This document shows, one piece after another, positions 50,911 through 64,000 of a DNA stretch of 64,000 nt. This DNA is from a virus (Duplodnaviria; Caudoviricetes). Below the pieces are notes generated by a model. It had not been told where the DNA came from and made no database searches. It was given only the letters and a program-made list of their open reading frames with translations. The stretch lies in the IMG/VR virus record IMGVR_UViG_3300021254_000027, positions 41,543-105,542 of that record; one strand, written 5' to 3'. Each line of letters opens with the position of its first letter. The stretch's first letter is position 1. The position numbers were made by a program, and so were the translations under genes.

Positions 50911-52085
50911 TATTCTTCATCCTCTCCTAAGAGTTCTCGAATAGTGGCGGCATCTTCATCAGCTTCTTGTTCTACTTGATTATAGTGTTCCAAAAAATCA
51001 CCATCAGAAAGCACTTCAGATTCAAGCTCTTCCATATCTAAGCCAAGAGAATCAGTAGTATCTTCATCTTCTTCTTTACTCTCTTCTCGTGCCATGGTAC
51101 GTACTGCATTTTCAATCAAGTTACCAAGATTCATTTCTTCAGTAACGAGACGATATGTATAATTGCGCAAATCGGCAAGAGTCTCATCAGGCTTATCTTT
51201 TGGCTCACTTACATAGTAACGAGGAATAAAGCCTTCACGCTCACAGAGAAGAATAAATTCATCAATAGCAGAAACATATTCACCAGATTCTGCTTTATTC
51301 TAAGCTGCGGTGAATTTCGCAGATTTCATCAAAGTATCATAAACTTTAGAAATCTTTTGAAAGCCTTCAATATCTCCAAGGTCAATAAGCTAATGTGCCT
51401 TAAGTGAAGTCTTACAGATTAATTTCAGATAATCCTCATGCGCGGGAGTTACAATATCAAAAGCCGCCATCATCTCTTGATATAGCTTTTCTAATTGAAC
51501 CCATTCATAAGGACGATACGCCTTACCCCATTTGATAGTAAGGTATTTCTTATCTTCATCAGTAAGATCATCATCAAAAAACTCTGGTTCATTTAAATCA
51601 ATGGGTGCCGTAGTCTCTTCAGTTTCTACAGGCTCTAGCGCAGGACGATCGGGCATACTACCTTCCGCAATCGCTTTTTCAATCTCTTCACCAGTGTATC
51701 CCTATCTCGCCATTGTTTCAGCTTTATGCGCATCCGCTTCAGCTTTAAGCCGTTCAGTATCATCCCAACCATAATCACGATACTGCTTTAACTTCATTTT
51801 AGACAAATAGCGGCCCAAGATTGTCATACCAGTAAGTTTTTTCTTATTTTGTCCATATCTATTGAGAAGAGTGGTCCATTCATCTTCAATATATGGAACA
51901 TCAATTTCTTCAAGAATCCAAGTATAAGTTTTCGGATCCCAGTTATCAACATGTCGAGTTAAACACTTTTTACATTCGGGCATCTTACCATCAGGAGGAT
52001 ACCTATCTATTCGTTTAGAAGTATAAAACTCATCTGCGTCCATTGTTCGTTTACAAGTTTTGCAATAACAAGTTGTATCAGCCAT
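50910..52085 (-). CDS. Zn-finger protein, putative terminase small subunit (391 aa with TAG=Gln)
   Basis: Joins track ORFs 51702..52085, 51390..51656, 50910..51170 in one frame (checked); CxxC...CxxC N-terminus; TAATG-coupled to TerL. Confidence 0.6.
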
Positions 52086-53164
52086 TATTTAGCCTCCTTC
52101 TTACGACCTTTGGCATTGCGGCATTTCTTACATATGCTATAGAAGCCATCTTTTGATGTCTTGTTGACTGAGAAGAACCTAGTATGAGCTAACTTAATTT
52201 CTCCGCAGCGCGAACATCTCTTCCATTTTCCCTTCTCTTGATATGTAAAGTACCACATTAGAAACTCGTCTTGCGCCTTTTGCGCAATGAGTTTCGGAAT
52301 CTTATTTCGCCAAAGACTACTAATATATTCTATAGAGTGTGTAAAAGCGAACTCCTTCTACAATAAAGCCTAAATTTCTGTATTAGGAATTCTTTCCATT
52401 TTGTACTCTACGATGCGTTTATACATAGGGTATTCGGCAAGTGCCCTATCCATTAATGCCCCAAAATCTAAACAACAATACCAAGAATCACCAAGAAAAT
52501 TTCCTTGGCTACGATTTTTCATAGCTAGATATACTTGCATTAATTCACTACATACTTTTGCATCACAAAAGGATAGTCCAGAATACTTAATCGTTGCGTT
52601 GCCTTGATTATCATATTCAATCCACTCATCCCACAAGAGCGGCATTGAATAAGGACCACTTCTTGTTAATCTTGTAAAAATAATAGGACGACGATAAGAA
52701 TTCTTAATAACATATTGATCTTTGCGCATTTCGATTAGAGTGCGTTTAATTATAAACGCTTCTCGTCCGGAGGCTTGTTTTAACAGTTCTTCCCAGCGTT
52801 CTATGCTTTCGCGCAACTGTCTTAATGGCGGAATTTCTTCAATATCTTTTTTAGTAATAGTAACTTTAGGTTGAAATATAATGTTTTTACCGTTTTCCGC
52901 AATTAAATTATAAATACCATCTTCGCCATTTTCTAGCTAGCCTACCAGACCCTCGTAAGAAGTTTCTCGCTTATTAATCGTAGCCATACGATTATCAGTA
53001 AGAATCTTTCTCTCCTTTTTCTCTTGCTTCTCCATACAAAGCACTAGATAGTCACCGAGAATTTCAAGATACTACTCGCTTGGGTCGGGAGTTTCTTCTA
53101 AAATTAAATTTACTAACTTTAAGCGCTCTTCGGGAGAATCGATTGTATAATCTAATTTAATTAT
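52085..53164 (-). CDS. Putative transcription regulator: HTH-like segment plus C-terminal Zn ribbon (~359 aa with TAG=Gln; ATA/ATT start)
   Basis: AAAGGAGGAG RBS followed 6 nt later by ATA-ATT-AAA-TTA-GAT-TAT; ...EI[TAG]ALL[TAG]KEFAFTHSIEYISSLWRNKIPKLIA...CSRC...CKKC; TAA 52085-52087. Confidence 0.6.
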
Positions 53165-53215
53165 ACTAATCTCCTCCTTTAAGTTGACGTTTGGGCTCGT
53201 CTTTACTACACTCTC

Positions 53216-53292
53216 ATTATACTAAAAAAAATTGGGTGAGTCAAGTTAAGATTTACACCCAATTTGAAAAAAAGCAAAAAATATATTATAAT
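53216..53292. promoter_or_regulatory. Back-to-back divergent sigmaA promoters
   Basis: Minus: TTGACT(53244-39)-N17-TATAAT(53221-16). Plus: TTGAAA(53264-69)-N17-TATAAT(53287-92). Inverted repeat AAATTGGGTG/CACCCAATTT at 53229-38/53256-65. Confidence 0.8.
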
Positions 53293-53313
53293 ATTTATAG
53301 AAGGTGAAGAGAA

Positions 53314-53913
53314 ATGAAACTATGGACACTAAAAAGGGGCCCCATTGGAGAAATTCCCGAAAATGCTGAATGGTATGACAAAGCAGTTGCAGCGTTGAAA
53401 AAGGAGATGGCTAAACGCATGAAAATTTATATCGCGGCACCAGTAGTCGGCAATAGCGCAGATGTGCAGAATCAAATTTATAATGTTGCTAATTTGTTGA
53501 CTTCTTGGGAAGACGAAGAGCATTATAAGCATAATCGAGGATATGATATTTATTTGCCAAGCCAGCTTAAAGTGCCCAATGCTTGGGGCATGACTATGAA
53601 TGAGTGGGGCCGATGTGTTTTCACTCTTGATGTCGTGGAATTAGATCGCGCCGATTGGGTGGTCGTTTGCGATTTCGGGCGCCAGAACACAGCTGGAACT
53701 AGCTGGGAGGCAGGATATGCATTTGGCAAGGGGAAGAAGATTCTCCTTATAAAAATGCCCGAGGTACAAGAGCAAAGTTTAATGGTCGCATGTTGCGCGG
53801 CAAATAGTATAGATTACGCGGACTTAATGAAATTAAAGGAGATGAAAGATATTGGCTACTTGTTTACAGAGCGAGGCCGCAACCAAAAAGAAGGCGGAAC
53901 AGTCCTTAATTAA
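53314..53913 (+). CDS. Nucleoside 2-deoxyribosyltransferase family protein
   Basis: KIYIAAP...DVVELDRADWVVV...AGTSWEAGYAFGKGKKILL, the NDT family signature. Confidence 0.8.
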   Translation: MKLWTLKRGPIGEIPENAEWYDKAVAALKKEMAKRMKIYIAAPVVGNSADVQNQIYNVANLLTSWEDEEHYKHNRGYDIYLPSQLKVPNAWGMTMNEWGRCVFTLDVVELDRADWVVVCDFGRQNTAGTSWEAGYAFGKGKKILLIKMPEVQEQSLMVACCAANSIDYADLMKLKEMKDIGYLFTERGRNQKEGGTVLN

Positions 53914-54115
53914 GTGTAAGTATTGCGGCGATGGTGAGCCAAGTGTGTTAACATCTTCTGAATATAGCGGGGTTGAGTTGATGTTTTTCCCCAAATTGGG
54001 GTATTTGCGCGCGAGGGTTTATTTAAATAGTGATGAAATTTTTGATACGCAAGATGTTGCGCTGATTAAATATTGTCCTTTTTGCGGAAGAGAATTGGAG
54101 GTAGCACATGAGTAA
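53852..54115 (+). CDS. Small Zn-ribbon protein; true start probably near 53909
   Basis: CKYC and IKYCPFCGREL motifs. Confidence 0.55.
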   Translation: MATCLQSEAATKKKAEQSLIKCKYCGDGEPSVLTSSEYSGVELMFFPKLGYLRARVYLNSDEIFDTQDVALIKYCPFCGRELEVAHE

Positions 54116-54323
54116 GTTGGAAGGTTGGTTTACACTTGCGGCGATAGTAATTTTTGTTGGTTTATTATTGATTTTGCCGATTCCCCTGTTGCTTGCGTGG
54201 AAGGGTATTGCTGTGGCAATGTTTGGTTTGCCCATGCTTGGATATTGGCCGGCGTTTTGGGCTAATCTTACTATAGCTATTTGGTTTGGCGGTATTGGAT
54301 ACCATTCGCGTGGTAAGGAGTAA
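54108..54323 (+). CDS. Small membrane protein
   Basis: 71 aa, two hydrophobic segments, GGAGG RBS. Confidence 0.65.
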   Translation: MSKLEGWFTLAAIVIFVGLLLILPIPLLLAWKGIAVAMFGLPMLGYWPAFWANLTIAIWFGGIGYHSRGKE

Positions 54324-54325
54324 TT

Positions 54326-54565
54326 ATGATTTATAAATGTACTACTGTTTATAATGGAGAAGTAAAGACTGTAAGGGGAAATTGGGCAGGGGTGGTAACT
54401 GCTATATATTCCCATATTAATGATGAAGAAAACGCGCGAAAAGTTTCTATTTTAATTGGGCCTGTGCAAGCAGAAATGTTTTTCGGGCAAGAAGTAAATA
54501 TTGAGCTTGGCGATATACAGAATAAATTTAAGATTAAAATAGAAACCATTAAGCCAACAGCTTAG
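54326..54565 (+). CDS. Hypothetical protein ending in TAG
   Basis: 79-aa ORF, AAGGAG RBS, TAG 54563-54565. Confidence 0.6.
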   Translation: MIYKCTTVYNGEVKTVRGNWAGVVTAIYSHINDEENARKVSILIGPVQAEMFFGQEVNIELGDIQNKFKIKIETIKPTA

Positions 54566-54576
54566 GGGATGTTAGA

Positions 54577-54777
54577 ATGGCTAAACGAGGATGGTATTTA
54601 AAATGTAGAACTTGCGGCGGATATAGGGAAGGTGGGATAGATATATTAACACCTTGTCCGTATTGCTGTCAAGTGACTCAATGGGAGAAGGCTTTTGAAG
54701 TAGAATATGTAATTGGCCCGACACCCGAAATTCAAAAGAGGTTTAGAAAGAGAAAAAGCCAGACCAAAGCGATTTAA
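54577..54777 (+). CDS. Small Zn-ribbon protein
   Basis: CRTC...CPYC. Confidence 0.6.
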   Translation: MAKRGWYLKCRTCGGYREGGIDILTPCPYCCQVTQWEKAFEVEYVIGPTPEIQKRFRKRKSQTKAI

Positions 54778-55100
54778 CAAAATCAAAATAATTTTCTCCC
54801 GAAACCTACCCCGGGGTTGATATTTTTTATTCGGTAAAAAAAACAGCGGGTAGTCTGGGGTATAAAAAAATTCGACGGGGCGCCCACGGCCAAGGCGCCC
54901 CGATTTTCCGTGTTAAATTTCTGTTAAAAAAATTTAACAGAGATGTCATAGAAATTTAACACACGACCCCAGCCCCGAAACCTGGCACCCCAATGTTAAG
55001 AGTTTGTTAAACCGTCGATCACGCGCGCAAAAGGGGCTTGACAAATGCACCTGGCGGGTGTATAATAGTGACAACGAAAGGGACAAGAGAGGTGCTAACG

Positions 55101-55502
55101 ATGACTTACTACTTCGACATGGACGGCGTGCTGGCGAACTTCCACAAGGCTTATGCTGCTGACAAGGCTACTGCTCTTAAGCGTAACGCTATGGCGAACC
55201 TGGAGCCCTTCCAGCACAACGTTGACCTGCTGAACAACCTGATCGCCGCTGGCGTGACCTGCTACATCCTGACCAAGGCGGCGAACGCAGACGCCATGCA
55301 GGGCAAGATCGACTGGCTGGCTAAGTACGTTCCTGCCATGGACGCTGAGCACTTCATCTGCATCATGAAGGGACGCAAGGTGGACAGCATCCGCGAGGCT
55401 GGTGTGTTGGTGGACGACGACAAGACCAACTGCAACCAGTGGAACAAAGCAGGCTACACCAGCATCTACCTTGAGACCAAGGGACAGGACATTGTTCTGT
55501 AA
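55101..55502 (+). CDS. HAD-family 5'(3')-deoxyribonucleotidase-like protein
   Basis: YFDMDGVLANF, ILT, K..WL, GVLVDD motifs; ATG 55101 after GAGGTG. Confidence 0.8.
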   Translation: MTYYFDMDGVLANFHKAYAADKATALKRNAMANLEPFQHNVDLLNNLIAAGVTCYILTKAANADAMQGKIDWLAKYVPAMDAEHFICIMKGRKVDSIREAGVLVDDDKTNCNQWNKAGYTSIYLETKGQDIVL

Positions 55503-55584
55503 TAAACTCTTAACAATCGAAGGGCTTGACAATCAAGCCCTTTGGTGGTATAATAAATACATCAAAAGCAAGGAGGTCACTTCC

Positions 55585-55746
55585 ATGAAGTACATCATCG
55601 TCAGCATCAACACCGGCAAGCAGGTTCCCGCGATCGACATCTGCGGCGAGGAGCATTGGGAGCCGCTGGAGCTCAAAGCGGCGGCAAAGGCAGTCGCCAC
55701 CATGAACCGCGAAAGCGGCAAGGCTTATAGGCTAGAGCGCCTGTAA
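55585..55746 (+). CDS. Hypothetical early protein (53 aa)
   Basis: Own promoter, AAGGAGG RBS, MKYIIVSINTGK. Confidence 0.7.
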   Translation: MKYIIVSINTGKQVPAIDICGEEHWEPLELKAAAKAVATMNRESGKAYRLERL

Positions 55747-55963
55747 GCCGCTTCTTTTGCACCAGGTTCCCCCGTTTGCACGCGCGCTGGCGGCCGCTTC
55801 GCAGTCGCCAGCGCCGAGTTTGCGCGATGTATAGGTATGCAGAAAAAATGGATCAACATGCATGTGTTAAGCATTTGTTAAACCTCTCCTGAAACGCTTG
55901 ACAACCTGGCGAAGCTGTGCTATAATTAGTACAACGAAAGGGACAAGAGAGGAGATCATCACA

Positions 55964-56179
55964 ATGACTAAGACCTATTGCATTATCAGCGAGCGCAACA
56001 ACGTAACCATCAAGAGCATGGACTTTGGCAAAGCTGTCCGCGTGACCGAGTATTTCGCAGCTATGCAGCTTGACCTGACGATCTTGACCTGGCACATCAG
56101 CGATAATGGCGACTATGTGCTGGATACCATGACCAAGGAACACAAGCGTTACGCCTTCATCGTAAGGGAGGAGGCGTAA
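55964..56179 (+). CDS. Hypothetical early protein (71 aa)
   Basis: Own promoter, GAGGAG RBS, MTKTYCIISERN. Confidence 0.7.
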   Translation: MTKTYCIISERNNVTIKSMDFGKAVRVTEYFAAMQLDLTILTWHISDNGDYVLDTMTKEHKRYAFIVREEA

Positions 56180-56252
56180 CGGAAACTTAACTTGACACCT
56201 AACACAGTATGTGTTATACTATAGGTACAAACAAGAGAGGAGCTGATACGTA

Positions 56253-56570
56253 ATGCGTAAGGCGATGGTTCTGATGGTGCTCATGGTAGTGATGGGAATG
56301 TTCTTTTCTTCGGCGTGCGCAGAGACCTACCCGGCGGCTTTCGTGGTCGTAGACACTGACGCAAATAACGACCTCCTGGTGCTCGTTGACTTCAATGGCA
56401 ATGAGTGGACATGGGAAGGCGTAGAAGATTGGGCGATCGGTGACATGGCCGCGGCCGTAATGGATGACGCCGGAACGTCGATCATCTATGATGACGCCAT
56501 TATCACCCTGCGCTATGTGGGCTGGCTGGATGGATGGGCAGAGAGAGCTAACGAGTGGTGTGAGCGCTAA
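56253..56570 (+). CDS. Secreted/membrane-anchored small protein
   Basis: Signal-peptide-like N-terminus (MRKAMVLMVLMVVMGMFFSSACA); own promoter. Confidence 0.7.
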   Translation: MRKAMVLMVLMVVMGMFFSSACAETYPAAFVVVDTDANNDLLVLVDFNGNEWTWEGVEDWAIGDMAAAVMDDAGTSIIYDDAIITLRYVGWLDGWAERANEWCER

Positions 56571-56680
56571 GCGCTTACACCATACCAGGACGTAACAAAT
56601 ACTTAACATACACAAGTCTTGACAAGCTGCTGATCGTGTGGTATACTATACACACAAGCAAGAGAGAGGAGCTACACACT

Positions 56681-56827
56681 ATGTACACCATCATGATCAG
56701 CAGCAACACCAGCGACATGGTCTATCACTACAGCATGCAGGACATCGACAAGGCAAGGATCTCACTAGAATACCTCAACATCATGACCGAAGACAAGTGG
56801 ACGATGACCATCGACAAACAGTCTTGA
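56681..56827 (+). CDS. Hypothetical early protein (48 aa)
   Basis: Own promoter, GAGGAG RBS, MYTIMISS. Confidence 0.65.
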   Translation: MYTIMISSNTSDMVYHYSMQDIDKARISLEYLNIMTEDKWTMTIDKQS

Positions 56828-57083
56828 CCAACCAGGTCAAGGCTGTTTCTTCATCTCTCGCAGGCGCGCGGGCGGGCGTCAGGTCGCCCTTCGCGCCGAG
56901 TTCGCGCTTAACAGAGCCTTCACAATATTGTCACACAAAAACAACATGTTAAATATGTGTTAAATCTTTCCTACAACCTGGCGCATGGCACAATGATGTC
57001 ACAGTGTTGTCGTGTGCTTGTCCTTGCTTGTGTGTCTGTTGTATGATACAATAGATACATCAAGAGGCAAGGAGATGTTAACC

Positions 57084-57221
57084 ATGTTGGAGCTGATCGC
57101 ATTTGTGTTGTTGATCTATTGGGCGTTAGCTTTTGTCCTGGTGGCGTTTGGGGCGTGGTCGATTTGGACTTTGATAATTGGTTTGATAATGGGATTTGTT
57201 TACGTAATGTTTACAGAATAG
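57084..57221 (+). CDS. Small membrane protein (45 aa) ending in TAG
   Basis: AAGGAG RBS, two hydrophobic segments. Confidence 0.6.
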   Translation: MLELIAFVLLIYWALAFVLVAFGAWSIWTLIIGLIMGFVYVMFTE

Positions 57222-57284
57222 GGGCTTGACAAATCAAGCCCCATCCTGTATAATAATATTAGATCAAAGAGAGGAGCGAACACC

Positions 57285-57632
57285 ATGACTAATCTGAAAT
57301 CCATCAAAGTTTCCTACCACTTCCAGAACGACAGGCAGGGGCGCAAAGAGCGCATCGACAGGGTTGTTAATGGGAATTGGGGTTCCGTGGTCAAAGAGGA
57401 ATTCCGCAAGGACGCCTGGCGCATGTTGACTGATACTGGATTGATTTTCATTTTGACCCCTAACAAGGAACTGATTTTGACTTATTACTTTGCTACCGGC
57501 AAGACGGTTAATGAAATGTATCACGGCAAAGCGCCCAAGGCGATCACGAACCGCATTAACAAGAACGCGCGCGCCTACGCTGAAATTTACAACGAAGGAA
57601 TCAGCACCGAGCGCGTTTACCACAAGATTTAA
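57285..57632 (+). CDS. Hypothetical early protein (115 aa)
   Basis: Own promoter and GAGGAG RBS. Confidence 0.75.
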   Translation: MTNLKSIKVSYHFQNDRQGRKERIDRVVNGNWGSVVKEEFRKDAWRMLTDTGLIFILTPNKELILTYYFATGKTVNEMYHGKAPKAITNRINKNARAYAEIYNEGISTERVYHKI

Positions 57633-57703
57633 CAATCGAAGGGGTTGACAAAACCCCTTCTCCATGGTATAATAGTTACATCAAAGAGAGAGAGGCGATC
57701 CCA

Positions 57704-58180
57704 ATGAAGAAGATTTTCACCAACACCCTGAGCGTCAAGGAAGCCCGCGAACTGATTAACGAAGGTTACAAGTTCTTTGTAAAGTGCGACTTCGTCACCT
57801 GCGGCACGATCGATCCCTGGAGCGGAATGCCGAACATTGACAACAATGTGGCGGTGTTCACGAACAAGGCCGAAGCCGAAGCCTGCGCGGCCGAACAGGT
57901 TTGGCCCTTCAATCCCAATGTGCACGGCACCGTGGAAGAACTCCGCTGGGGCGAGACGTGGGACGAAATGGAAGAACGTCTGGCGCGTGAGAAGGCCGAA
58001 CGCAAAGCGAAGCGCGAAGCCAAGGAAGCCGAGAAGGCCGCCGCCGCTGGTATGACGGTTGCCGAATACAAGGCCGCAAAAGCCAAAGCCGCCAAGCGTG
58101 CGAAGCTGAAAAAAGAGATCGCCGAGCTTGAAGCGGAACTCGCCGCTAAGCGTGCGGAACTCGCCGAAGTGGACGCCTGA
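57704..58180 (+). CDS. Hypothetical early protein with Ala/Lys/Glu coiled-coil tail
   Basis: 158 aa, own promoter and RBS. Confidence 0.75.
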   Translation: MKKIFTNTLSVKEARELINEGYKFFVKCDFVTCGTIDPWSGMPNIDNNVAVFTNKAEAEACAAEQVWPFNPNVHGTVEELRWGETWDEMEERLAREKAERKAKREAKEAEKAAAAGMTVAEYKAAKAKAAKRAKLKKEIAELEAELAAKRAELAEVDA

Positions 58181-58279
58181 AAAGGCGTCCAAGTCTTTGT
58201 TAAGATTTAAAAAACCTATTGACAACTACTCCAGCTTGTGTTATAATTAGTACATCAAAGAGAGAGAGGAAGTAATCAA

Positions 58280-58477
58280 ATGTTCTACATGATCGCCTAC
58301 ACCATCCGCTACGACGAAGAGACCTACGAAGAGAAGTTCGTCAACGCCGACGACATGCGCGACTACTACGAGGAGAGCGGCATGGCTGACAGCGACCTCG
58401 TCGAGGACGTCTGGTTCTACCGCAAGGACGAGCACGGCGTCTGGGTTGAGTTCAAACCCGCCTGGCTCTGGGACTAA
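58280..58477 (+). CDS. Small highly acidic protein (65 aa)
   Basis: Own promoter and RBS; rich in Asp/Glu and aromatic residues. Confidence 0.7.
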   Translation: MFYMIAYTIRYDEETYEEKFVNADDMRDYYEESGMADSDLVEDVWFYRKDEHGVWVEFKPAWLWD

Positions 58478-58667
58478 TCCCAGAGCCTTTTCATTTGGCG
58501 GCGCGCGCACGGCTGTTTGCGCGCCGAAATCGCACCATAACATGATCTCCATAATTTATTAACACAAAAGTCGCATGTTAAGTATGTGTTAAATGATCCC
58601 AATACCTATTGACAACCTGGTGCAAAGGATGTATAATAGATACATCAAGAGCGAGGGGGACAAAAAA

Positions 58668-58796
58668 ATGTTCGAGATCTACAATGTTTACACTGGCGTA
58701 ACAATCCTGTCGGGTCTGACCTTTAAGCAGGCGTTTAACCTGCGGATGATGCAGGCCGACCGCCTGGACCTGGCGATCCGCGAAACAAAATCTTAA
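58668..58796 (+). CDS. Hypothetical early protein (42 aa)
   Basis: Own promoter, GAGGGG RBS, MFEIYNVYTG. Confidence 0.65.
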   Translation: MFEIYNVYTGVTILSGLTFKQAFNLRMMQADRLDLAIRETKS

Positions 58797-58852
58797 CTTG
58801 ACAAATTCGACTGAACCCGCTATAATAGAATCATCGAAGGGAGCTGATCAGA

Positions 58853-59317
58853 ATGAATAAAGAGATTATCAAGGCTATGCAGGGCAAGAAGGAACACAAG
58901 GTGCGCAAGTGGTGGCGCAAGAATGGTTACAAGGTCTGGCGCGTAGTGCTGTTCCCGCTGTGGGCTTGCGTAAAAGCGAAAGAGAAAATCACCGAACAAC
59001 TGGACAATCGGCAAGAGTGGGACGAAGAACGCGCTAACGAAATTCTCAACTACTACATTCCGCGCCGTGCCCACTGGAACGAAAAAGACCAGTGCTTCTA
59101 CTTCTTCGATAATGGTATGGGGTGGAACCTGGCGCTTGCTAAAAAGTATTTGAAGCGGAAAGATCGTCGCTTCTGGCAAATCCACACCGGTTTCTTTGGT
59201 GGAAAAATTCGGGAATACTTGATCGACAAATTCCAGCTTGAAGGCTTTACCAAAGAAGTTGGACCCTATGACGACTGGACCGAAGTTACCTTCAATCTTA
59301 ACACGGAAAGGGCTTGA
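58853..59317 (+). CDS. Hypothetical early protein (154 aa)
   Basis: Own promoter and RBS; its TGA lies inside the next -35 box. Confidence 0.75.
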   Translation: MNKEIIKAMQGKKEHKVRKWWRKNGYKVWRVVLFPLWACVKAKEKITEQLDNRQEWDEERANEILNYYIPRRAHWNEKDQCFYFFDNGMGWNLALAKKYLKRKDRRFWQIHTGFFGGKIREYLIDKFQLEGFTKEVGPYDDWTEVTFNLNTERA

Positions 59318-59365
59318 CAAAAGCCCTTCCGGATGGTATAATAGACTCATCAACAAGAGAGGAAA

Positions 59366-59605
59366 GTGATAAAAATGGAAATCAATTGGACTGTGGAATA
59401 TTCTCTGAATATTGGCGACGGCGATCTGGAAAACATGGCCGAAGTCGCCAACGACTACATCCGCGCAGGCTATGAGCGCAAAGAAGCGATCCACGAAGCG
59501 GTGAATGACTATCTGATGGGCCTGGATGATTGCATCTACTACAGCATCACCGAAGAGGCCGGTCAGCAGATCGAGGATACACTTAACGAACACTTAACCG
59601 AGTAA
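59366..59605 (+). CDS. Small acidic protein (79 aa)
   Basis: Own promoter and RBS. Confidence 0.7.
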   Translation: MIKMEINWTVEYSLNIGDGDLENMAEVANDYIRAGYERKEAIHEAVNDYLMGLDDCIYYSITEEAGQQIEDTLNEHLTE

Positions 59606-59662
59606 GGGGTTGACAAATCCCCTACTCGGGAGTATAATAAGAGCATGAAAGGGGTTGAGAGT

Positions 59663-59854
59663 ATGAAAGAGTTTAACTACATCAACGATTTAGGAGCACG
59701 GAAAAAATTGGTGGTTTATCCACTGAATGAAAGCGGTAAACACCCCGTTACCCTCTGGTGTATGGAAAATGGAGAACTCGCGGGGACTGGAGAACTGACG
59801 CCCGAGGAAGTCAAAGATTGGCTTGCACACTATGGCATCACAGATACACTGTGA
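59663..59854 (+). CDS. Hypothetical early protein (63 aa)
   Basis: Own promoter, AAAGGGG RBS, MKEFNYIND. Confidence 0.65.
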   Translation: MKEFNYINDLGARKKLVVYPLNESGKHPVTLWCMENGELAGTGELTPEEVKDWLAHYGITDTL

Positions 59855-60036
59855 TGCTTTCATTCGGCCGCGCGCTCCTGGTCGTTGCGCGCGGTTTTTA
59901 CGCCTTAACACACCCTTCACATTTTTGTAACACGATCGCCGCATGTTAACTGTAGGTTAAATGATCCTGAAACCTCTTGACAGCCTGGCGCAGATGATGT
60001 ATAATAGTCTTACAAACAAGAGAGGAGCTGACAAAA

Positions 60037-60327
60037 ATGATTAGCACTGGAATCGTTCGCCGCATTGATGAATTGGGCCGCGTTGTTATCCCGAAGGAGA
60101 TTCGCCGTTCTCTGAAAATAAAGGATGGCGACCCGCTGGAGATTTTCCGCGACAAGGACAAGCTGGTCCTGGTCAAGTATGCGCCCGAAGATGACAAGCA
60201 GGACGCAGTAGACACTTTGAACGAATGGCTGAAAGATACGGAACAGTCCGCGGCGCTGACTGATATTGAGCGCACGACCTTTAAGATGCTGCTGGATAAG
60301 GTGGCGGGTGTTAAGACTGGTGAATAA
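60037..60327 (+). CDS. AbrB/SpoVT-family transcriptional regulator
   Basis: MISTGIVRRIDELGRVVIPKEIRRSLKIKDGDPLEIF, the AbrB/SpoVT N-terminal DNA-binding domain. Confidence 0.9.
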   Translation: MISTGIVRRIDELGRVVIPKEIRRSLKIKDGDPLEIFRDKDKLVLVKYAPEDDKQDAVDTLNEWLKDTEQSAALTDIERTTFKMLLDKVAGVKTGE

Positions 60328-60440
60328 CCAGTTCTTAACATCCTGGCCTGGCGGCCAATGTTAAGATTTGAAGAACCTCTTGACAAACTGACTAACCTAT
60401 GATACAATAGTATCAGATCAAAGAAAGGAAGTTGATTCAA

Positions 60441-60623
60441 ATGACGAACAACAACAACACTACTTCTTGCAGCATTTCCCTCTCCACTCTGCTGGGCGTT
60501 ACCTTCATCATTCTCAAGCTGTGCGGCGTGATCGCGTGGTCCTGGTGGTGGGTCCTGGCTCCCTTCTGGATTCCGGTCGCCATCGCTGTGATCTTCTGCG
60601 TTATCATCCTGCTTATCAGGTGA
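60441..60623 (+). CDS. Small two-helix membrane protein
   Basis: LLGVTFIILKLCGVIAWSWWWVLAPFWIP, a motif common in phage small membrane proteins. Confidence 0.75.
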   Translation: MTNNNNTTSCSISLSTLLGVTFIILKLCGVIAWSWWWVLAPFWIPVAIAVIFCVIILLIR

Positions 60624-60693
60624 TAACAAACTCTTAACTTGACAATCTCGGCTGACTATGATACAATAGATACATCGAAAGGGGATAAACAAA

Positions 60694-60717
60694 ATGCCAA
60701 ATGCTCCGCCCACCTAA
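60694..60717 (+). CDS. 7-aa minigene MPNAPPT
   Basis: Own promoter (60639-60667), leader and GAAAGGGG RBS, ATG CCA AAT GCT CCG CCC ACC TAA. Confidence 0.5.
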   Translation: MPNAPPT

Positions 60718-60820
60718 AACCTGGTTAACAAACTCTTAACTTGACAAACCGAACCTGATGTGATATAATAAGTCCAGAAAGTGAAGGAAAACACTAAAAA
60801 ACCAGAAAGGAATTGATACT

Positions 60821-61168
60821 ATGACCAATAAGATGACTTACGCCGTTGCTCTGAACAATGCCATCAACCTGACCGAAGGTGAGACCCGTGAGACGCTGGA
60901 GCGCCTGCTGGAATCCATCAACAAGCGCAACGCCAGCAAGTCCAGCACTGGCAAGCCCACTAAGACCCAGCGTGAGAACATGGAAGTCAAGGCCCAGATC
61001 GTGGAGTTCCTGCGCGGCTCCGAGCCTGTCCAGTGTGGCGCGATTGCCACGGAGCTGGGCCTGTCCGGCCAGAAGGTTTCCGCTCTGCTCAAGCAGCTGT
61101 GCGAGAGCGGCGAGGTGGTCAAGACCGAAGGCCCCAAGCACGTCTCCCTGTTCGCCATCAAGGCGTAA
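60821..61168 (+). CDS. Winged-helix DNA-binding protein, paralog 1
   Basis: KPTKTQ...IVEFL...IATELGLSGQKVSALLKQL..GEVVK. Confidence 0.7.
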   Translation: MTNKMTYAVALNNAINLTEGETRETLERLLESINKRNASKSSTGKPTKTQRENMEVKAQIVEFLRGSEPVQCGAIATELGLSGQKVSALLKQLCESGEVVKTEGPKHVSLFAIKA

Positions 61169-61245
61169 CAAACAATTAACTTGGGCGGGGCTTGACAAAA
61201 GCCCCAGCCCATGGTATAATAGATACATCAAGAGACGAAAGGTAG

Positions 61246-61452
61246 TTGATCTTAATGGCAATGAACTCTCTGTTGGGTAAGACCATGGCAATCTGGATGC
61301 TGGCGGGTCGTCCGCTTGTCGCGTGCGTTTTCTTCCTCGCTGGTTTCCTGCCCGACCTCATCCGCAACTATCTGAAACGGCGTCGCCGTCTGATCATCCA
61401 GTGCGACGAAACGGTAGTGAAACCGGTGGGCAAGTACAGGCTGCACGATTAG
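61246..61452 (+). CDS. Small membrane-associated protein ending in TAG
   Basis: Own promoter, hydrophobic segment then basic tail. Confidence 0.6.
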   Translation: MILMAMNSLLGKTMAIWMLAGRPLVACVFFLAGFLPDLIRNYLKRRRRLIIQCDETVVKPVGKYRLHD

Positions 61453-61501
61453 TGCAGCCTTTTTGGCGGCCCGGTCGCGAGCGCGACCTGGCCGAAATTC
61501 C

Positions 61502-61530
61502 ATTATAACATGCCGCCAGCAATTTGTCAA
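61502..61530 (-). promoter_or_regulatory. Perfect antisense sigmaA promoter
   Basis: TTGACA(61530-25)-N17 with extended -10 TG-TATAAT(61507-02), firing leftwards into a GC hairpin. Confidence 0.8.
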
Positions 61531-61775
61531 GAGAAAAAGTGTTAAATCTATGTTAAGTTTCTGATCCCGAAACGAGCCTGGCGCGCCTGCATAATTATGC
61601 AGGCGCATTGCATAAATATTCATGTATAATCATGCAAGAGAATGAATAAAAGTTTACAATCTCTCAACACGAAATACGTTGAACCTTAACAGTCGTTTGT
61701 GCTATACTATAATTGTTCCAAGGGGAACGGAAATCACGCGGGCGCGGCGATACGGCGCGGAAAGGGATTGATACT

Positions 61776-62462
61776 ATGCGCAAGAATTACACCATCGTTA
61801 TGGACACTGAAACCTGCAACATCGTCAAGATGGATGCGGTAAAGCCTGGCAATAATCTGACCTATGACATCGGCTTTTCTGTTGTGTGCCCCAGCACCGG
61901 CGAAGTCGTCCTGGAGCGTTCCTACGTCGTGCGGGAAATCTTCTTTGGCGAAGTGGAGCGCATGAAGTCCAGCTACTACGCGGCGAAGCTGCCCCAGTAT
62001 TACAAGGACATCGCCGAAGGTAAGCGCGTCGTTAAGTCGTTCTTTGAAATCATGAACGAAGTGCAGGACATTTGCGATAACATGAACATTGTCGCAATCG
62101 TCGCCCACAATGCGCGGTTTGATGTGGACGCGCTGAACACTACCGCGCGCTGGCTGACTGACCTGTACAGCGTCCGCGCCCTGCCTAACGTCGAAGTGTG
62201 GGACACTATGCGGATGTGGAACGCGGTCAAGCCTGCGAAGTATGACAAGTGGTGTGCGGAAAATGGTTACATGACTAACCACAAGCCGCCGCGTGCGCGT
62301 CTGACCGCTGAAATTATTTACCGTTTCATTACGGAAGATGTGGAATTTGTGGAATCCCACACCGCGCTGGAAGATGTACAGATTGAACGTGAAATCATGT
62401 TCAAAGTGTACAAGATGCACAAGAGTGTTAAGGAAGTTCGCGTCCTCTACTATGCCGAGTAG
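61776..62462 (+). CDS. DEDDh (DnaQ-like) 3'-5' exonuclease, ending in TAG
   Basis: IVMDTET (ExoI), AHNARFD (ExoII), HTALED (ExoIII). Confidence 0.85.
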   Translation: MRKNYTIVMDTETCNIVKMDAVKPGNNLTYDIGFSVVCPSTGEVVLERSYVVREIFFGEVERMKSSYYAAKLPQYYKDIAEGKRVVKSFFEIMNEVQDICDNMNIVAIVAHNARFDVDALNTTARWLTDLYSVRALPNVEVWDTMRMWNAVKPAKYDKWCAENGYMTNHKPPRARLTAEIIYRFITEDVEFVESHTALEDVQIEREIMFKVYKMHKSVKEVRVLYYAE

Positions 62463-62548
62463 AGGACGCCTGGAACCCAAAAATTAACAGAAACGTGCAT
62501 GTGGATTTAACAATCAGTCACTATAATAGATAATGTCGAAAGGAGCTG

Positions 62549-62932
62549 ATGATAATGACGCAAGCCGAACGGATGCGCAAGGCAGGATTCACGGACGCGG
62601 AAATTGCGGACATGCTGGAAGCGGATGCGCGGATTGACAAGGGCGAAAAGCTCTTTGAACAGACCGCGGAGCAAAAAGCGGTCACGCGCAAGATGACGCA
62701 AGCGCGAAGCGCGGTTAATGCCTACGGGAAAAAGGTCACGCGGGAACGCAAGCCGAACGAAATCAAGCGCAAAATCATGCAATTCGTTTTTGATGCTCTC
62801 CGCATTAATTCCGGATGCCAGCCGCTTGCCCCTAACGCAGAATTAACAAACCCCGAACGCACGATTGACTTTGAGATTGACGGACGCGCGTTCACGCTGA
62901 CACTGACCGAACATCGGAAGCCGAAAACTTAA
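62549..62932 (+). CDS. Hypothetical early protein (127 aa)
   Basis: AAGGAG RBS, intact ORF. Confidence 0.7.
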   Translation: MIMTQAERMRKAGFTDAEIADMLEADARIDKGEKLFEQTAEQKAVTRKMTQARSAVNAYGKKVTRERKPNEIKRKIMQFVFDALRINSGCQPLAPNAELTNPERTIDFEIDGRAFTLTLTEHRKPKT

Positions 62933-63038
62933 CATTCGGCTTCCACGAAAAACTCTTGACAAGCCCGCCTGGATGTGCTATAATAATCACGTAATCAAGA
63001 GAAGGAAAACTCTTAAAAACCGGAAAGGAATTGATACT

Positions 63039-63389
63039 ATGACTAAGAACATCACCCGCGTTGACGCCCTGAACACCGCCATCGAAGCCCTGTCTGATAA
63101 CACCGCCGTTGTCGAAGTCCTGACCGCGATCCGTGACAGCATTGCGAAGGCCAACAGTCGCCGGTCTGACAAGCCCACGAAGGCACAGATCGAAGCCGCC
63201 GCGCTCCGTGCGAAGGTTGTCGCCCTGCTGACCGACACGCCGCACAGCGTGACCGAAATGCTTGCCATGTCGCCGGACTTCGCCGGCATGAGCAATCAGA
63301 AGATGTCCGCCCTGCTTAACAAGGCCGTAACCGAGGGCGAAGCCCTCAAGGTTTCGGAAAAGCGCGTGACGAAGTTCCTGCGCGCCTGA
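63039..63389 (+). CDS. Winged-helix DNA-binding protein, paralog 2
   Basis: KPTKAQ...SNQKMSALLNKAVTEGE; shares the leader AAAAACC(A/G)GAAAGGAATTGATACTATGAC with 60821. Confidence 0.7.
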   Translation: MTKNITRVDALNTAIEALSDNTAVVEVLTAIRDSIAKANSRRSDKPTKAQIEAAALRAKVVALLTDTPHSVTEMLAMSPDFAGMSNQKMSALLNKAVTEGEALKVSEKRVTKFLRA

Positions 63390-63397
63390 CCGAAAAA

Positions 63398-63485
63398 TGC
63401 AGGATGGGGCAACCCATCCTGCAAATCCCTTCACACTTTACCACGCGAAAGTAAATGCAGGATTGCGCCCGCAATCCTGCATTTT
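63398..63485 (+). terminator. Two tandem related hairpins; the second has a U-tract
   Basis: TGCAGGATGG-GGCAAC-CCATCCTGCA and AAATGCAGGATTGC-GCCC-GCAATCCTGCATTTTT. Confidence 0.6.
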
Positions 63486-63732
63486 TACACAATCTTAACT
63501 TAACGCCAGGTTCTTCGAATGTTAACCAACATTTAACATTCGGCGGCCCGGCGGCGGACGTTGCGCCGCCGCCTGGGCCGAATTCGCATGTTAAGTTTGT
63601 GTTAAACTTTTATGCAGCAAAATGGCACAATTGTTACAGATCTATTGCAATCCCAGAACCTGGTGTAACAAACTGTTAACTTGACTTTTGAACCCTTATT
63701 TGTTATAATAGTTACAGAAAGAGGAAAGGAAA

Positions 63733-63921
63733 GTGGCCACAATGATGAACAAACGCGCGTTTTACAAGAGGGTTGATGAGCTGAGCGCCTGGGATCTGGA
63801 TAGCGGTTGCCGCCACTTTGTCAATCAGGACAGCGCCGCGAATCGCAAGTTGAAAAAGCGCTTGCGCAGGCAGGCCCGCCGCCGCATTAACGCGGCGGCG
63901 ATGGACGAAGCTCAAGAGTAG
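63733..63921 (+). CDS. Small basic protein (62 aa) ending in TAG
   Basis: Own promoter and RBS; Arg/Lys-rich. Confidence 0.65.
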   Translation: MATMMNKRAFYKRVDELSAWDLDSGCRHFVNQDSAANRKLKKRLRRQARRRINAAAMDEAQE

Positions 63922-64000
63922 TTAACAAACTCTTAACTTGACAAACAGCCTGGAATCGGTTATAATAATTACAGAAACAAGAGAGGAGCAAACAAAAATG

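What the first reader, a model, noticed from the sequence alone, without database searches (positions are those of the whole stretch)
53314..64000. Dual genetic code in one genome: early genes are standard-code and five appear to stop at TAG
Seen: no plus-strand gene needs TAG readthrough, and TAG closes the ORFs at 54563-65, 57219-21, 61450-52, 62460-62 and 63919-21. Each is followed by the next gene or by promoter/hairpin DNA with no immediate backup stop. Inference: TAG means stop early and Gln late, so a code switch could time late-protein synthesis and also alter early proteins by C-terminal extension.
Basis: partly seen in the sequence, partly recalled or inferred. Interest (0 to 1): 0.8.

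Follow-up and report, generated by a model that had tools for sequence, protein, structure and literature searches.

The report
Phage early genes stop at TAG
In this gut phage fragment the codon TAG ends five small early genes but codes for glutamine in the neighbouring virion genes, a well-supported example of a two-code arrangement already described for related phages.

Summary
Window 53314-64000 is a plus-strand block of about 26 small genes. None needs TAG read-through, and five end at the stated TAGs. The block is real phage DNA, not a chimera: two independent contigs, the 97%-complete relative G003 and phAss-1 show the same AT-rich late / GC-rich early layout. Relatives end the five genes at or near the same residue, with TAG, TGA or TAA. 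No relative has a sense codon there, and no protein-like extension is conserved. The exonuclease gene gives 65 homologous ends: TAA 44, TGA 20, TAG 1. Three of the five TAGs lie in or against strong hairpins. About 300 bases away, on the other strand, TAG swaps with Gln codons between close relatives.

The temporal switch is inferred, not shown. The contig is 61% complete and has no tRNA. G003 and phAss-1 carry a tRNA(CUA) in a tRNA array just downstream of the early block. Borges, Pfennig and Peters already published the two-code model, including extended "isoforms". This is a new member of a known kind. The scan had already noted it on this genome. The GC-rich, promoter-dense early block at double read depth is the more unusual feature.

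The parts
52085..53044 (-). First late-strand gene beside the early block. It has 3 in-frame TAGs. PHROG labels it 'sigma factor'; Pfam finds no sigma domain.
   Evidence: TAG and Gln codons swap between W and L001 at 5 of 6 sites.
53264..53292 (+). First plus-strand promoter match, TTGAAA-17-TATAAT.
   Evidence: The same TTGAAA variant recurs in the middle region of G003.
53314..54777 (+). Five plus-strand genes at about 40% GC: a nucleoside 2-deoxyribosyltransferase-like gene, a zinc-ribbon gene, a membrane peptide and two unknowns.
   Evidence: GC3 is 0.38.
54326..54565 (+). 79-aa ORF ending at TAG 54563-65. The next gene's ATG is at 54577.
   Evidence: The L001/L010 homologue is 64% identical, 9 aa longer and ends in TAA; its tail is unlike the read-through tail of W.
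54780..55037 (.). Non-coding spacer with GC hairpin 54876-54902. GC content and read depth both step up just after it.
55038..63966 (+). GC-rich early block (GC 0.46-0.51, GC3 0.70). It holds 21 promoter matches with at most 1 mismatch, each before a small ORF with a Shine-Dalgarno site. Genes include a 5'-deoxyribonucleotidase-like gene, an AbrB/MazE-like gene, two winged-helix paralogues and an exonuclease.
57075..57221 (+). 48-aa membrane peptide ORF ending at TAG 57219-21.
   Evidence: L001/L010 also have TAG here. Read-through is in frame with 57285-57632 in W but out of frame in L001.
57221..57242 (+). Hairpin GGGGCTTGA-CAAA-TCAAGCCCC. It starts at the G of the TAG and contains the -35 box of the next promoter.
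   Evidence: -20.7 kcal/mol, z -5.4.
61255..61452 (+). 65-aa ORF (68 aa from TTG 61246) ending at TAG 61450-52.
   Evidence: TAG in L001 (91% identical) and L010 (46%); TAA two residues earlier in L013. A contig from sheep-gut run X2 spanning 61107-61618 shows no listed change at the TAG.
61438..61464 (+). Intrinsic-terminator-like hairpin followed by TTTT(T). The TAG spans the end of the loop and the first base of the 3' arm.
   Evidence: -19.3 kcal/mol, z -4.0; conserved in L001 and L010.
61453..61712 (.). Conserved non-coding control region before the exonuclease gene. It holds a second GC palindrome, a consensus promoter on the minus strand (61530 to 61502), TGTTAA boxes and the palindrome CTGCATAATTATGCAG.
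   Evidence: 92% mean column identity, no codon periodicity; better conserved than the coding part in L010.
61776..62462 (+). DnaQ-like exonuclease gene (228 aa from ATG 61776) ending at TAG 62460-62.
   Evidence: The 65 homologous gene ends use TAA 44, TGA 20, TAG 1. All copies at least 41% identical end within -6 to +1 residues.
62440..62469 (+). Hairpin over the last codons of the exonuclease gene, with the TAG in the 3' arm. From the letters printed, the L001 copy appears to form a different hairpin that holds its TGA.
   Evidence: -23.1 kcal/mol, z -5.7. The L001 hairpin is read by eye and was not folded.
63733..63921 (+). 62-aa basic ORF ending at TAG 63919-21.
   Evidence: Five homologues end at TGA +2 (L001 and L010, same sequence), TGA +5 (L014), TAA +12 (L018) and TAA +1 (L050).
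63938..64000 (+). Last promoter, Shine-Dalgarno site and an ATG at 63998-64000, cut by the contig end.
   Evidence: A contig of source run X1 runs 2,032 nt beyond 64000.

Best explanation
The window is part of a large (about 170 kb expected) phAss-1-like phage of a Firmicute from a ruminant or other animal gut. Its plus-strand block 53314-64000 is an early, host-transcribed module: many monocistronic small genes, each behind a near-consensus sigma-A/sigma-70 promoter and a strong ribosome-binding site.

Shown:
- These genes are written in the standard code.
- TAG is one of their three working terminators, used in 5 of about 26 genes.
- The late genes on the other strand use TAG for about 31% of their glutamine codons.

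Inferred: early mRNAs are translated by the unmodified host machinery, so host release factor 1 ends them at TAG. A phage tRNA(CUA) then accumulates, is charged by the host Gln-tRNA synthetase, and makes the late genes readable. In complete relatives this tRNA lies in a roughly 34-tRNA array just downstream of the early block, on the same strand and behind its own near-consensus promoter. In this contig that part is missing.

The read-through tails of the five TAG-ended genes are by-products, not functional extensions.
For: Layout and code:
- Under TAG=Q the minus strand gives long ORFs, for example 4755 aa with 119 TAGs, with portal, terminase and virion hits.
- Late Gln codons are CAA 573, CAG 141, TAG 318. 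Late stops are TAA 29, TGA 6.
- TAG aligns to Q in 37 of 160 cases and at 5 of 6 direct swaps.

Early block:
- 22 of the contig's 25 plus-strand promoter matches lie here. The scan found 43 sites against 12.9 +/- 3.3 in shuffles.
- 0 in-frame stops in 2494 codons, against 30 out-of-frame TAGs.

TAG as a stop:
- Homologue ends match.
- TAG also closes heuristic early ORFs in relatives: L001 3 of 34, phAss-1 3 of 28, G003 2 of 30, and 27 of 538 in 70 metagenome loci.
- Three of the five TAGs sit in or against strong hairpins.

Not a chimera: L001, L010, G003 and phAss-1 share the layout. The exonuclease and portal both have homologues in phAss-1 and in Enterococcus phages.

Switch parts in relatives:
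- phAss-1 has tRNA-Sup-CTA at 105747-105820, in an array downstream of the early block.
- G003 has a tRNA(CTA) at 116104-116196 with TTGACT-17-TATAAT at 116243.
- No RF-1 domain in 5 of 5 records searched.

Published model.
Against: - No tRNA of any kind is in this contig (ARAGORN; Rfam), so the suppressor is assumed from relatives. The contig is 61% complete and lacks about 67 kb that G003 has between the early block and the primase gene.
- No expression or timing data. No RNA run holds the stretch.
- The G003 tRNA(CTA) has its own host-type promoter, so suppression may start early and be gradual.
- TAG stops are not conserved as TAG beyond the closest relatives (1 of 65 exonuclease ends), so nothing shows that TAG is selected here.
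- The early ORF calls are mine, or heuristic. At least one heuristic call in W was wrong: 60888-61280 was called instead of 60821-61168.
- Many of the 65 exonuclease ends are near-duplicates, for example L001 and L010.
Confidence: 0.8

Rival explanations
1. Soft or ambiguous decoding. The suppressor tRNA is made from the start, TAG is partly stop and partly Gln throughout infection, and the early TAG-ended genes always give a mixture of short and extended products. There is no sharp switch.
For: In G003 the tRNA(CTA) sits behind a TTGACT-17-TATAAT promoter of the same host type as the early genes. No release-factor gene was found in 5 of 5 records, so host RF1 should keep competing. Pfennig et al. 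propose a 'soft' switch.
Against: A 4755-aa late protein with 119 TAGs needs very efficient suppression, which would also abolish TAG termination. The early block lies upstream of the tRNA array in G003 and phAss-1. Early-gene tails are not conserved, so selection ignores the extended forms.
Confidence: 0.3
2. Programmed extension or shut-off. After the switch, read-through of the five TAGs alters or inactivates chosen early proteins by fusion, extension or non-stop decay, so the TAG stops are selected as a timer.
For: In W, TAG 57219 reads in frame into the next gene. TAG 61450 lies inside a terminator, so read-through would reach the mRNA end. W has more TAG stops (5 of 25) than relatives (27 of 538). 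TAGs 57219 and 61450 are kept in L001 and L010.
Against: The fusion is out of frame in L001. Three of five TAGs are TGA or TAA in the closest relatives. Only 1 of 65 exonuclease ends uses TAG. The conserved 'extension' at 61450 is non-coding control DNA. L001 and L010 are too close to W for the two shared TAGs to prove selection.
Confidence: 0.1
3. Assembly chimera or foreign insert. The GC-rich block belongs to another element, so the two codes never meet in one genome.
For: GC jumps from about 0.36 to 0.50 near 54950. Contig depth in the source run rises from 20.6 to 40.2. The block ends at the contig end.
Against: The same late/early junction occurs in L001, L010, G003 and phAss-1. Source-run contigs overlap across 53691-55575. 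Plus-strand genes 53314-54777, which include one TAG-ended gene, are at the late-region depth and are syntenic in L001.
Confidence: 0.02
4. Recoded host. The host itself reads TAG as Gln, and the five ORFs really run on to the next TAA or TGA.
For: None found. Only the absence of a phage suppressor tRNA in this incomplete contig.
Against: Homologues stop at the TAG position with TGA or TAA. 0 in-frame TAGs in 2494 early codons against 318 in 25,499 late codons. Relatives carry their own tRNA(CUA). I recall no bacterial TAG=Gln code; I ran no search for one.
Confidence: 0.02

Closest known systems
Stop-codon recoding as a regulator of late genes in gut phages (Borges et al., preprint 10.1101/2021.08.26.457843; I read passages)
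   Same: TAG is read as Gln in structural genes. Early genes are compatible with the standard code. The model has a suppressor tRNA made early that opens the late genes. The host is a standard-code Firmicute or Bacteroidete.
   Different: Their evolutionary model starts from loss of TAG as a stop in low-GC phages. Here a GC-rich early block still uses TAG as a terminator in 5 of about 26 genes. No suppressor tRNA, release factor or aminoacyl-tRNA synthetase is present in this fragment.
Dual-coded early blocks and isoforms, 'soft switch' (Pfennig, Lomsadze and Borodovsky, Mgcod preprint 10.1101/2022.06.29.495998; I read passages and the Discussion)
   Same: A genome split into blocks with different codes. 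Early genes lack in-frame reassigned stops. Slightly longer products under the alternative code are treated as isoforms.
   Different: Described for crAss-like phages of Bacteroidetes. Here 21 of 26 early genes are dual-coded, but five are specific to code 11. Their tails are 4, 11, 15, 30 and 136 codons, and only the first falls within Mgcod's 30-nt tolerance.
phAss-1 and the proposed Phassvirus group, 'Caudoviricetes code 15 clade' (Babkin et al. 2023, PMC10607447; I read the abstract, section 2.1 and the Discussion)
   Same: Homologous portal (38% identity) and exonuclease (30%). TAG=Gln in virion genes. A GC-rich, promoter-dense block on one strand followed by a tRNA array with Sup-CTA.
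   Different: The paper does not mention early TAG stops, the GC split or the promoter array. The GenBank record calls a wrong-strand CDS over the exonuclease homologue. This contig is a distant relative and lacks the tRNA region.
Metaproteomic validation of code 15 in crAss-like phages (Peters et al. 2022, PMC9523058; I read passages)
   Same: One genome with regions assigned to code 11 and to code 15. No peptide evidence of TAG recoding in the code-11 regions.
   Different: A different phage order and host phylum. No proteomics exists for this phage.
Host-takeover or pre-early modules of Bacillus phage SPO1 and coliphage T5 (recalled, from no call)
   Same: A terminal block of many small genes, each with a strong host-type promoter. 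In those phages the block lies in a long terminal repeat. Here the block shows about twice the contig depth.
   Different: No sequence homology was tested. A terminal repeat is not shown here, and GC bias could give the same depth step. Those phages use one genetic code.

Membership tests
TAG-to-Gln (code 15) recoded Caudoviricetes, phAss-1-like | In-frame TAGs break virion genes under code 11, and reading them through restores full-length ORFs with phage structural homology | tested here: met
TAG-to-Gln (code 15) recoded Caudoviricetes, phAss-1-like | In-frame TAG aligns with Gln in homologues | tested here: met
   Q at 37 of 160 aligned TAGs, the commonest residue. 5 of 6 direct swaps with L001 are Q.
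TAG-to-Gln (code 15) recoded Caudoviricetes, phAss-1-like | Phage-encoded suppressor tRNA with anticodon CUA | tested here: inconclusive
   None in the 105.5-kb contig, but the contig is 61% complete. Present in G003 and phAss-1. The fragment G007, 68% complete, also lacks tRNAs.
TAG-to-Gln (code 15) recoded Caudoviricetes, phAss-1-like | Sequence homology of hallmark genes to phAss-1 | tested here: met
   Portal 38% identity over 86% of the query, E 1e-86. Exonuclease 30% identity, E 9e-17.
Dual-coded early block (Pfennig et al.) | Early genes give nearly identical proteins under code 11 and code 15: no in-frame TAG and no TAG stop, or a stop shift under 30 nt | tested here: not met
   Met for 21 of 26 genes plus the one with a 4-codon tail. 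Four genes would gain 11, 15, 30 or 136 residues.
Programmed stop-codon read-through with a functional extension | The stop codon and a protein-like extension are conserved in homologues | tested here: not met
Temporal code switch (early = stop, late = Gln) | The suppressor is absent or inactive while early genes are translated and active when late genes are translated | not testable with these tools
   No RNA holder was listed. Only gene order and promoters in relatives bear on it.
Long terminal repeat carrying early genes (SPO1/T5 type) | Double read depth with sharp edges and read ends piling up at the repeat boundaries | tested here: inconclusive
   Contig depth is 20.6 and 24.5 against 40.1 and 40.2. 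These are means per contig, GC bias is not excluded, and read ends are not available.

The most novel reading that the evidence does not exclude
The phage runs two complete translation regimes from one genome.

The first is a terminal early block, possibly duplicated as a long terminal repeat. It is written in host-like GC-rich codons (GC3 0.70) and the standard code, with TAG as a live terminator that is often built into terminator hairpins.

The second is an AT-rich remainder (GC3 0.20-0.30). In complete relatives it is decoded with the phage's own array of about 34 tRNAs, including an unusual long-arm tRNA(CUA).

On this reading the code switch also works backwards. Once suppression is on, the TAG-ended early genes are read through into a fusion, into control DNA, or to the end of a terminated transcript. 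That would shut off or mark for decay a chosen subset of early proteins.
Probability: 0.12. Interest if true: 0.65.

Novelty: new member of a known kind. Interest (0 to 1): 0.35.

Why it matters
This is clean, comparative evidence that one phage genome gives TAG two meanings within about 300 bases: a terminator in host-read early genes and glutamine in late genes. It comes from a Firmicute-phage lineage in which only the recoding itself had been reported.

It has a practical consequence for annotation. One translation table per genome mis-annotates this lineage. The phAss-1 GenBank record calls a wrong-strand CDS over the exonuclease homologue.

It also qualifies the idea that a stop codon must first fall out of use before it is reassigned. 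Here a GC-rich early block keeps TAG stops.

The five genes give concrete targets for proteomic or ribosome-profiling tests of the published switch model. Each has a TAG-terminated and a Gln-extended C-terminus to look for.

Tried and rejected
Suppressor tRNA in the contig. ARAGORN default found 0. With introns allowed it found 0, and at lowered thresholds it gave only noise with no plain CTA anticodon at ps80. Rfam gathering found 0. RF00005 at E up to 1 found 0.

tRNAs near the primase gene of relatives. 0 in 69 loci. The array lies elsewhere in complete relatives.

Release factor gene (PF00472). 0 of 5 records.

Near-identical phage records. Megablast of 53000-64000 gave no match.

Whole-record tRNA search in metagenome contigs. 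Four of the five handles were not held.

Circular closure. The contig ends share no repeat. A 31-codon ORF crosses a hypothetical end-to-start join. I rejected this as a real junction because a source-run contig continues 2,032 nt past 64000 and G003 has about 67 kb there.

Sigma-factor reading of 52085-53044. Only a PHROG label supports it; Pfam gives nothing. I did not build on it.

RNA evidence. No RNA holder was listed. The two RNA runs from the source sample gave only 20-40-nt matches to conserved leaders that run on unlike the window. I draw nothing from this.

A slip. In one search one early gene was entered one base out of frame (55584 instead of 55585), which gave one false in-frame TAG. 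I corrected it. The GC3 figures include that 54-codon error.

Rows dropped. In one search, of 87 tblastn rows I dropped minus-strand rows and rows not reaching query residue 215. That left 68 rows, 3 of which run off their contig. In one search, loci with identical starts were counted once and L001 and L005 were left out.

Literature. Searches, plus the papers read, gave no explicit statement that TAG terminates early genes in phAss-like phages. The general idea is in print. For the paper on early versus late codon usage (PMC5683454) I saw only the search listing and the start of its abstract.

Full report
WHAT THE WINDOW IS

The window is bases 41543-105542 of a 105,542-base IMG/VR virus record. 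The record is linear and CheckV rates it 61% complete. With TAG read as Gln, the minus strand from the window start to 53044 becomes a continuous run of large ORFs, for example 4755 aa with 119 TAGs and 2878 aa with 43. These ORFs hit PHROG families for portal, terminase and virion protein. The nearest named relatives are phage phAss-1 (portal 38% identity) and Enterococcus phages of about 140 kb. The scan had already reported the recoding on this genome. Those notes gave me the phAss-1 and Borges leads, which I then checked myself.

THE OBSERVATION

From 53314 to the contig end all convincing genes are on the plus strand. I list 27 candidate ORFs: 16 end in TAA, 6 in TGA and 5 in TAG. In the 26 ORFs I kept there is no in-frame stop in 2494 codons, while the other two frames hold 19 and 11 TAG triplets. 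Because the ORFs were drawn with code 11, that count alone is circular. Two things make it meaningful.

- The block is tiled by promoter, Shine-Dalgarno site, ATG, ORF and the next promoter. The consensus scan finds 43 promoter-like sites against 12.9 +/- 3.3 in shuffles. Sixteen are perfect 12-of-12 matches, 15 of them on the plus strand. In the whole contig, 22 of the 25 plus-strand sites with at most one mismatch lie in 53264-63966.
- 21 of the 27 ORFs have a homologue in the independent contig L001.

IS THE BLOCK PART OF THE SAME GENOME?

This needed checking, because GC rises from about 0.36 to about 0.50 near 54950 and the block runs to the contig end. Four lines say it belongs.

- L001 (IMGVR_UViG_3300031853_000306) has the same AT-rich late gene, 84.5% identical over 1.48 kb. 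It is followed by the same plus-strand genes and a GC-rich block.
- The metagenome contig behind L010 carries homologues of all five TAG-ended genes.
- G003 is 173,283 bases and 97% complete, with a 150-base end overlap. It has a block of 46-50% GC at about 135-147.5 kb in a genome that is otherwise 26-42% GC.
- In phAss-1 the record end 118968-135976 is 50% GC, with 23 near-consensus promoters on one strand. The structural region at 1-26000 is 38% GC.

The chimera reading is therefore rejected. Codon usage differs sharply. GC3 is 0.63 in the early genes (0.70 for 55101-63921), 0.30 in the replication genes and 0.195 in the late genes. CTG makes up 48% of early Leu codons against 1% of late ones.

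DO THE FIVE TAGS REALLY END THE PROTEINS?

- Exonuclease, 62460. A profile scan of metagenomes gave 73 loci. After dropping rows without C-terminal cover, 65 homologous gene ends remain, many of them near-duplicates. They use TAA 44, TGA 20 and TAG 1. Every copy at least 41% identical ends within -6 to +1 residues of the window's end, and none has an in-frame TAG. The two L001 paralogues end one codon later in TGA.
- 63919. Five homologues end at TGA +2 (L001 and L010, same sequence), TGA +5, TAA +12 and TAA +1.
- 61450. L001 and L010 have TAG; L013 has TAA two residues earlier.
- 57219. L001 and L010 have TAG.
- 54563. The L001/L010 protein is 9 residues longer and ends in TAA. Its tail is unlike the window's read-through tail.

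A search with read-through versions of 13 TAG-ended ORFs (X at the TAG) found some alignments that cross the TAG. Each has an explanation that does not involve coding.

- At 57219 the 'tail' is the conserved promoter and leader. The fusion with the next gene is in frame in W, where TAG and ATG are 66 nt apart. It is out of frame in L001, where they are 67 nt apart.
- At 61450 the 'tail' is a 260-nt control region. It is 92% conserved with no codon periodicity, and in L010 it is better conserved than the gene itself.
- At 62460 the alignment in L014 runs past a TAA.

That test is not met.

ANATOMY AROUND THE STOPS

Three of the five TAGs are part of strong hairpins.

- 61450 lies at the loop/3'-arm border of a -19.3 kcal/mol hairpin followed by UUUUU, an intrinsic-terminator shape.
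- 57219 abuts a -20.7 kcal/mol hairpin that also contains the next -35 box.
- 62460 lies in the 3' arm of a -23.1 kcal/mol hairpin. From the letters printed, the L001 copy appears to form a different hairpin that holds its TGA. I did not fold it.

The other two stretches fold no better than shuffles.

TAG AS GLUTAMINE NEXT DOOR

The gene at 52085-53044 on the minus strand starts 270 nt from the first early gene and has three in-frame TAGs. Between W and L001, TAG and a Gln codon swap at 5 of 6 variable sites; the sixth pairs TAG with Glu. Across all late proteins, W's TAGs align to Q in G003 in 37 of 160 cases. The next commonest are G003's own stops (19), N (14) and E (13). Late genes use TAG for 318 of 1032 Gln-type codons and stop only at TAA (29) or TGA (6).

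THE SWITCH

This part is inference. The contig has no tRNA by three methods. Relatives at 86-97% completeness carry 20-37 tRNAs, while the fragments G006 and G007 carry none.

In G003 the order along one strand is: GC-rich early block, standard-code genes, a 34-tRNA array at 109.2-122.8 kb that includes a tRNA with anticodon CTA, a few recoded genes, then the replication genes. The contig here breaks at the end of the early block and resumes 375 nt before the primase gene. It therefore lacks about 67 kb, which agrees with CheckV's 61%. A source-run contig runs 2,032 nt past 64000 into more early-type leader sequence.

phAss-1 has the same order, with tRNA-Sup-CTA at 105747-105820. No release-factor domain was found in 5 of 5 records. 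The G003 tRNA(CTA) has its own TTGACT-17-TATAAT promoter 47 nt upstream. The onset of suppression may therefore be gradual rather than sharp, which is why I give the 'soft' rival 0.3.

HOW COMMON ARE TAG STOPS IN THE EARLY BLOCKS OF RELATIVES?

Heuristic ORF calls (RBS plus start codon, at least 35-40 aa, plus strand) give TAG stops as follows.

| Source | TAG stops / ORFs |
|---|---|
| W | 5 / 25 |
| L001 | 3 / 34 |
| phAss-1 | 3 / 28 |
| G003, GC-rich part | 2 / 30 |
| 17 loci with GC at least 0.47 | 7 / 110 |
| 9 loci with GC 0.42-0.47 | 2 / 57 |
| 44 loci with GC below 0.42 | 18 / 371 |

TAG is a minority terminator throughout the clade, and W sits at the high end. These calls are rough: one W ORF was called in the wrong frame. 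Some of these relatives may not be recoded at all.

COMPARISON WITH WHAT IS KNOWN

Borges et al. propose exactly this life-cycle model: standard-code-compatible early genes, then suppressor tRNA, then recoded late genes (passages). Pfennig et al. describe block-wise codes, dual-coded early genes, extended 'isoforms' and a soft switch. Peters et al. found no recoded peptides in the code-11 regions of two crAss-like phages. Babkin et al. describe phAss-1 but say nothing about early TAG stops, the GC split or the promoters.

What this window adds is a Firmicute-phage example in which TAG is positively shown, by comparison, to terminate early genes. The early block is not merely TAG-free. That sits slightly against the 'stop codon first falls out of use' picture. 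The idea of functional C-terminal extension finds no support.

VERDICT

This is a new member of a known kind, with interest 0.35. The features I would follow up first are side observations: the extreme early/late codon split, the promoter array, and the twofold contig depth over the GC-rich block (20.6 and 24.5 against 40.1 and 40.2). The depth step could mean a long terminal repeat of the SPO1/T5 kind (recalled, not tested), or only GC bias.

Noticed in passing
window 55127-64000 against 52001-55154: Logan contigs of the source run have mean depth 40.1-40.2 over the GC-rich early block but 20.6 and 24.5 over the adjoining AT-rich DNA. This could be a long terminal repeat carrying the early genes, or GC bias.
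   Followed up: partly
window 55038-63966 against the rest of the contig: Extreme codon split inside one phage: GC3 is 0.70 in the early block, 0.30 in replication genes and 0.195 in late genes. G003 and phAss-1 show a similar split. Other relatives have AT-rich exonuclease genes, with GC 0.30-0.44.
   Followed up: partly
window 55033-63985: The repeated promoter unit often has the -35 box TTGACA inside a GC-rich hairpin (GGGGCTTGACAAA..GCCCC) placed right after the previous gene's stop. The hairpin and the next promoter overlap.
   Followed up: partly
window 61453-61712: A 260-nt spacer before the exonuclease gene is more conserved than the flanking genes. It holds a perfect extended -10 consensus promoter on the minus strand (61530 to 61502), antisense to gene 61255-61452, and the palindrome CTGCATAATTATGCAG.
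   Followed up: partly
window 54910-63607: Direct-repeat boxes of the form TGTTAA-N6-TGTTAA recur at 54910, 55864, 56946, 58575, 61539 and 63588 (families D9, D14, D18). Another finding of the scan covers them (e1-5884971).
   Followed up: no
L157 16104-16196 (G003 116104-116196, minus strand): The CTA-anticodon tRNA of G003 is 93 nt with a long variable arm, a U.U pair at the top of the acceptor stem and G before CCA. This is unusual for a Gln-type suppressor. The same array holds a 72-nt tRNA with anticodon TCA.
   Followed up: partly
L005 4335-5279 (OQ749652.1 130698-131642): The phAss-1 GenBank record annotates a CDS on the strand opposite to the exonuclease homologue, which lies at locus 4347-5009 on the plus strand. 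This is probably a shadow ORF of the GC-rich block.
   Followed up: partly
window 53264; G003 109-134 kb: There are two promoter variants. TTGACA-17-TATAAT is used in the GC-rich block. TTGAAA-17-TATAAT is used in the AT-richer genes that follow it in G003, including the tRNA array, and before window gene 53314.
   Followed up: no
window 60779-60865, 61758-61799, 62997-63083: The two winged-helix paralogues (60821-61168 and 63039-63389) and the exonuclease gene share a conserved 5' leader ending GGAAAGGAATTGATACTATG (families D17 and D19). L001 has three copies of the winged-helix gene and two of the exonuclease gene.
   Followed up: no
window 63998-64000 and genome 1-375: The contig ends on the ATG of a gene behind the last promoter. 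The source-run contig continues 2,032 nt further, so the record's two ends are not neighbours in the genome.
   Followed up: partly
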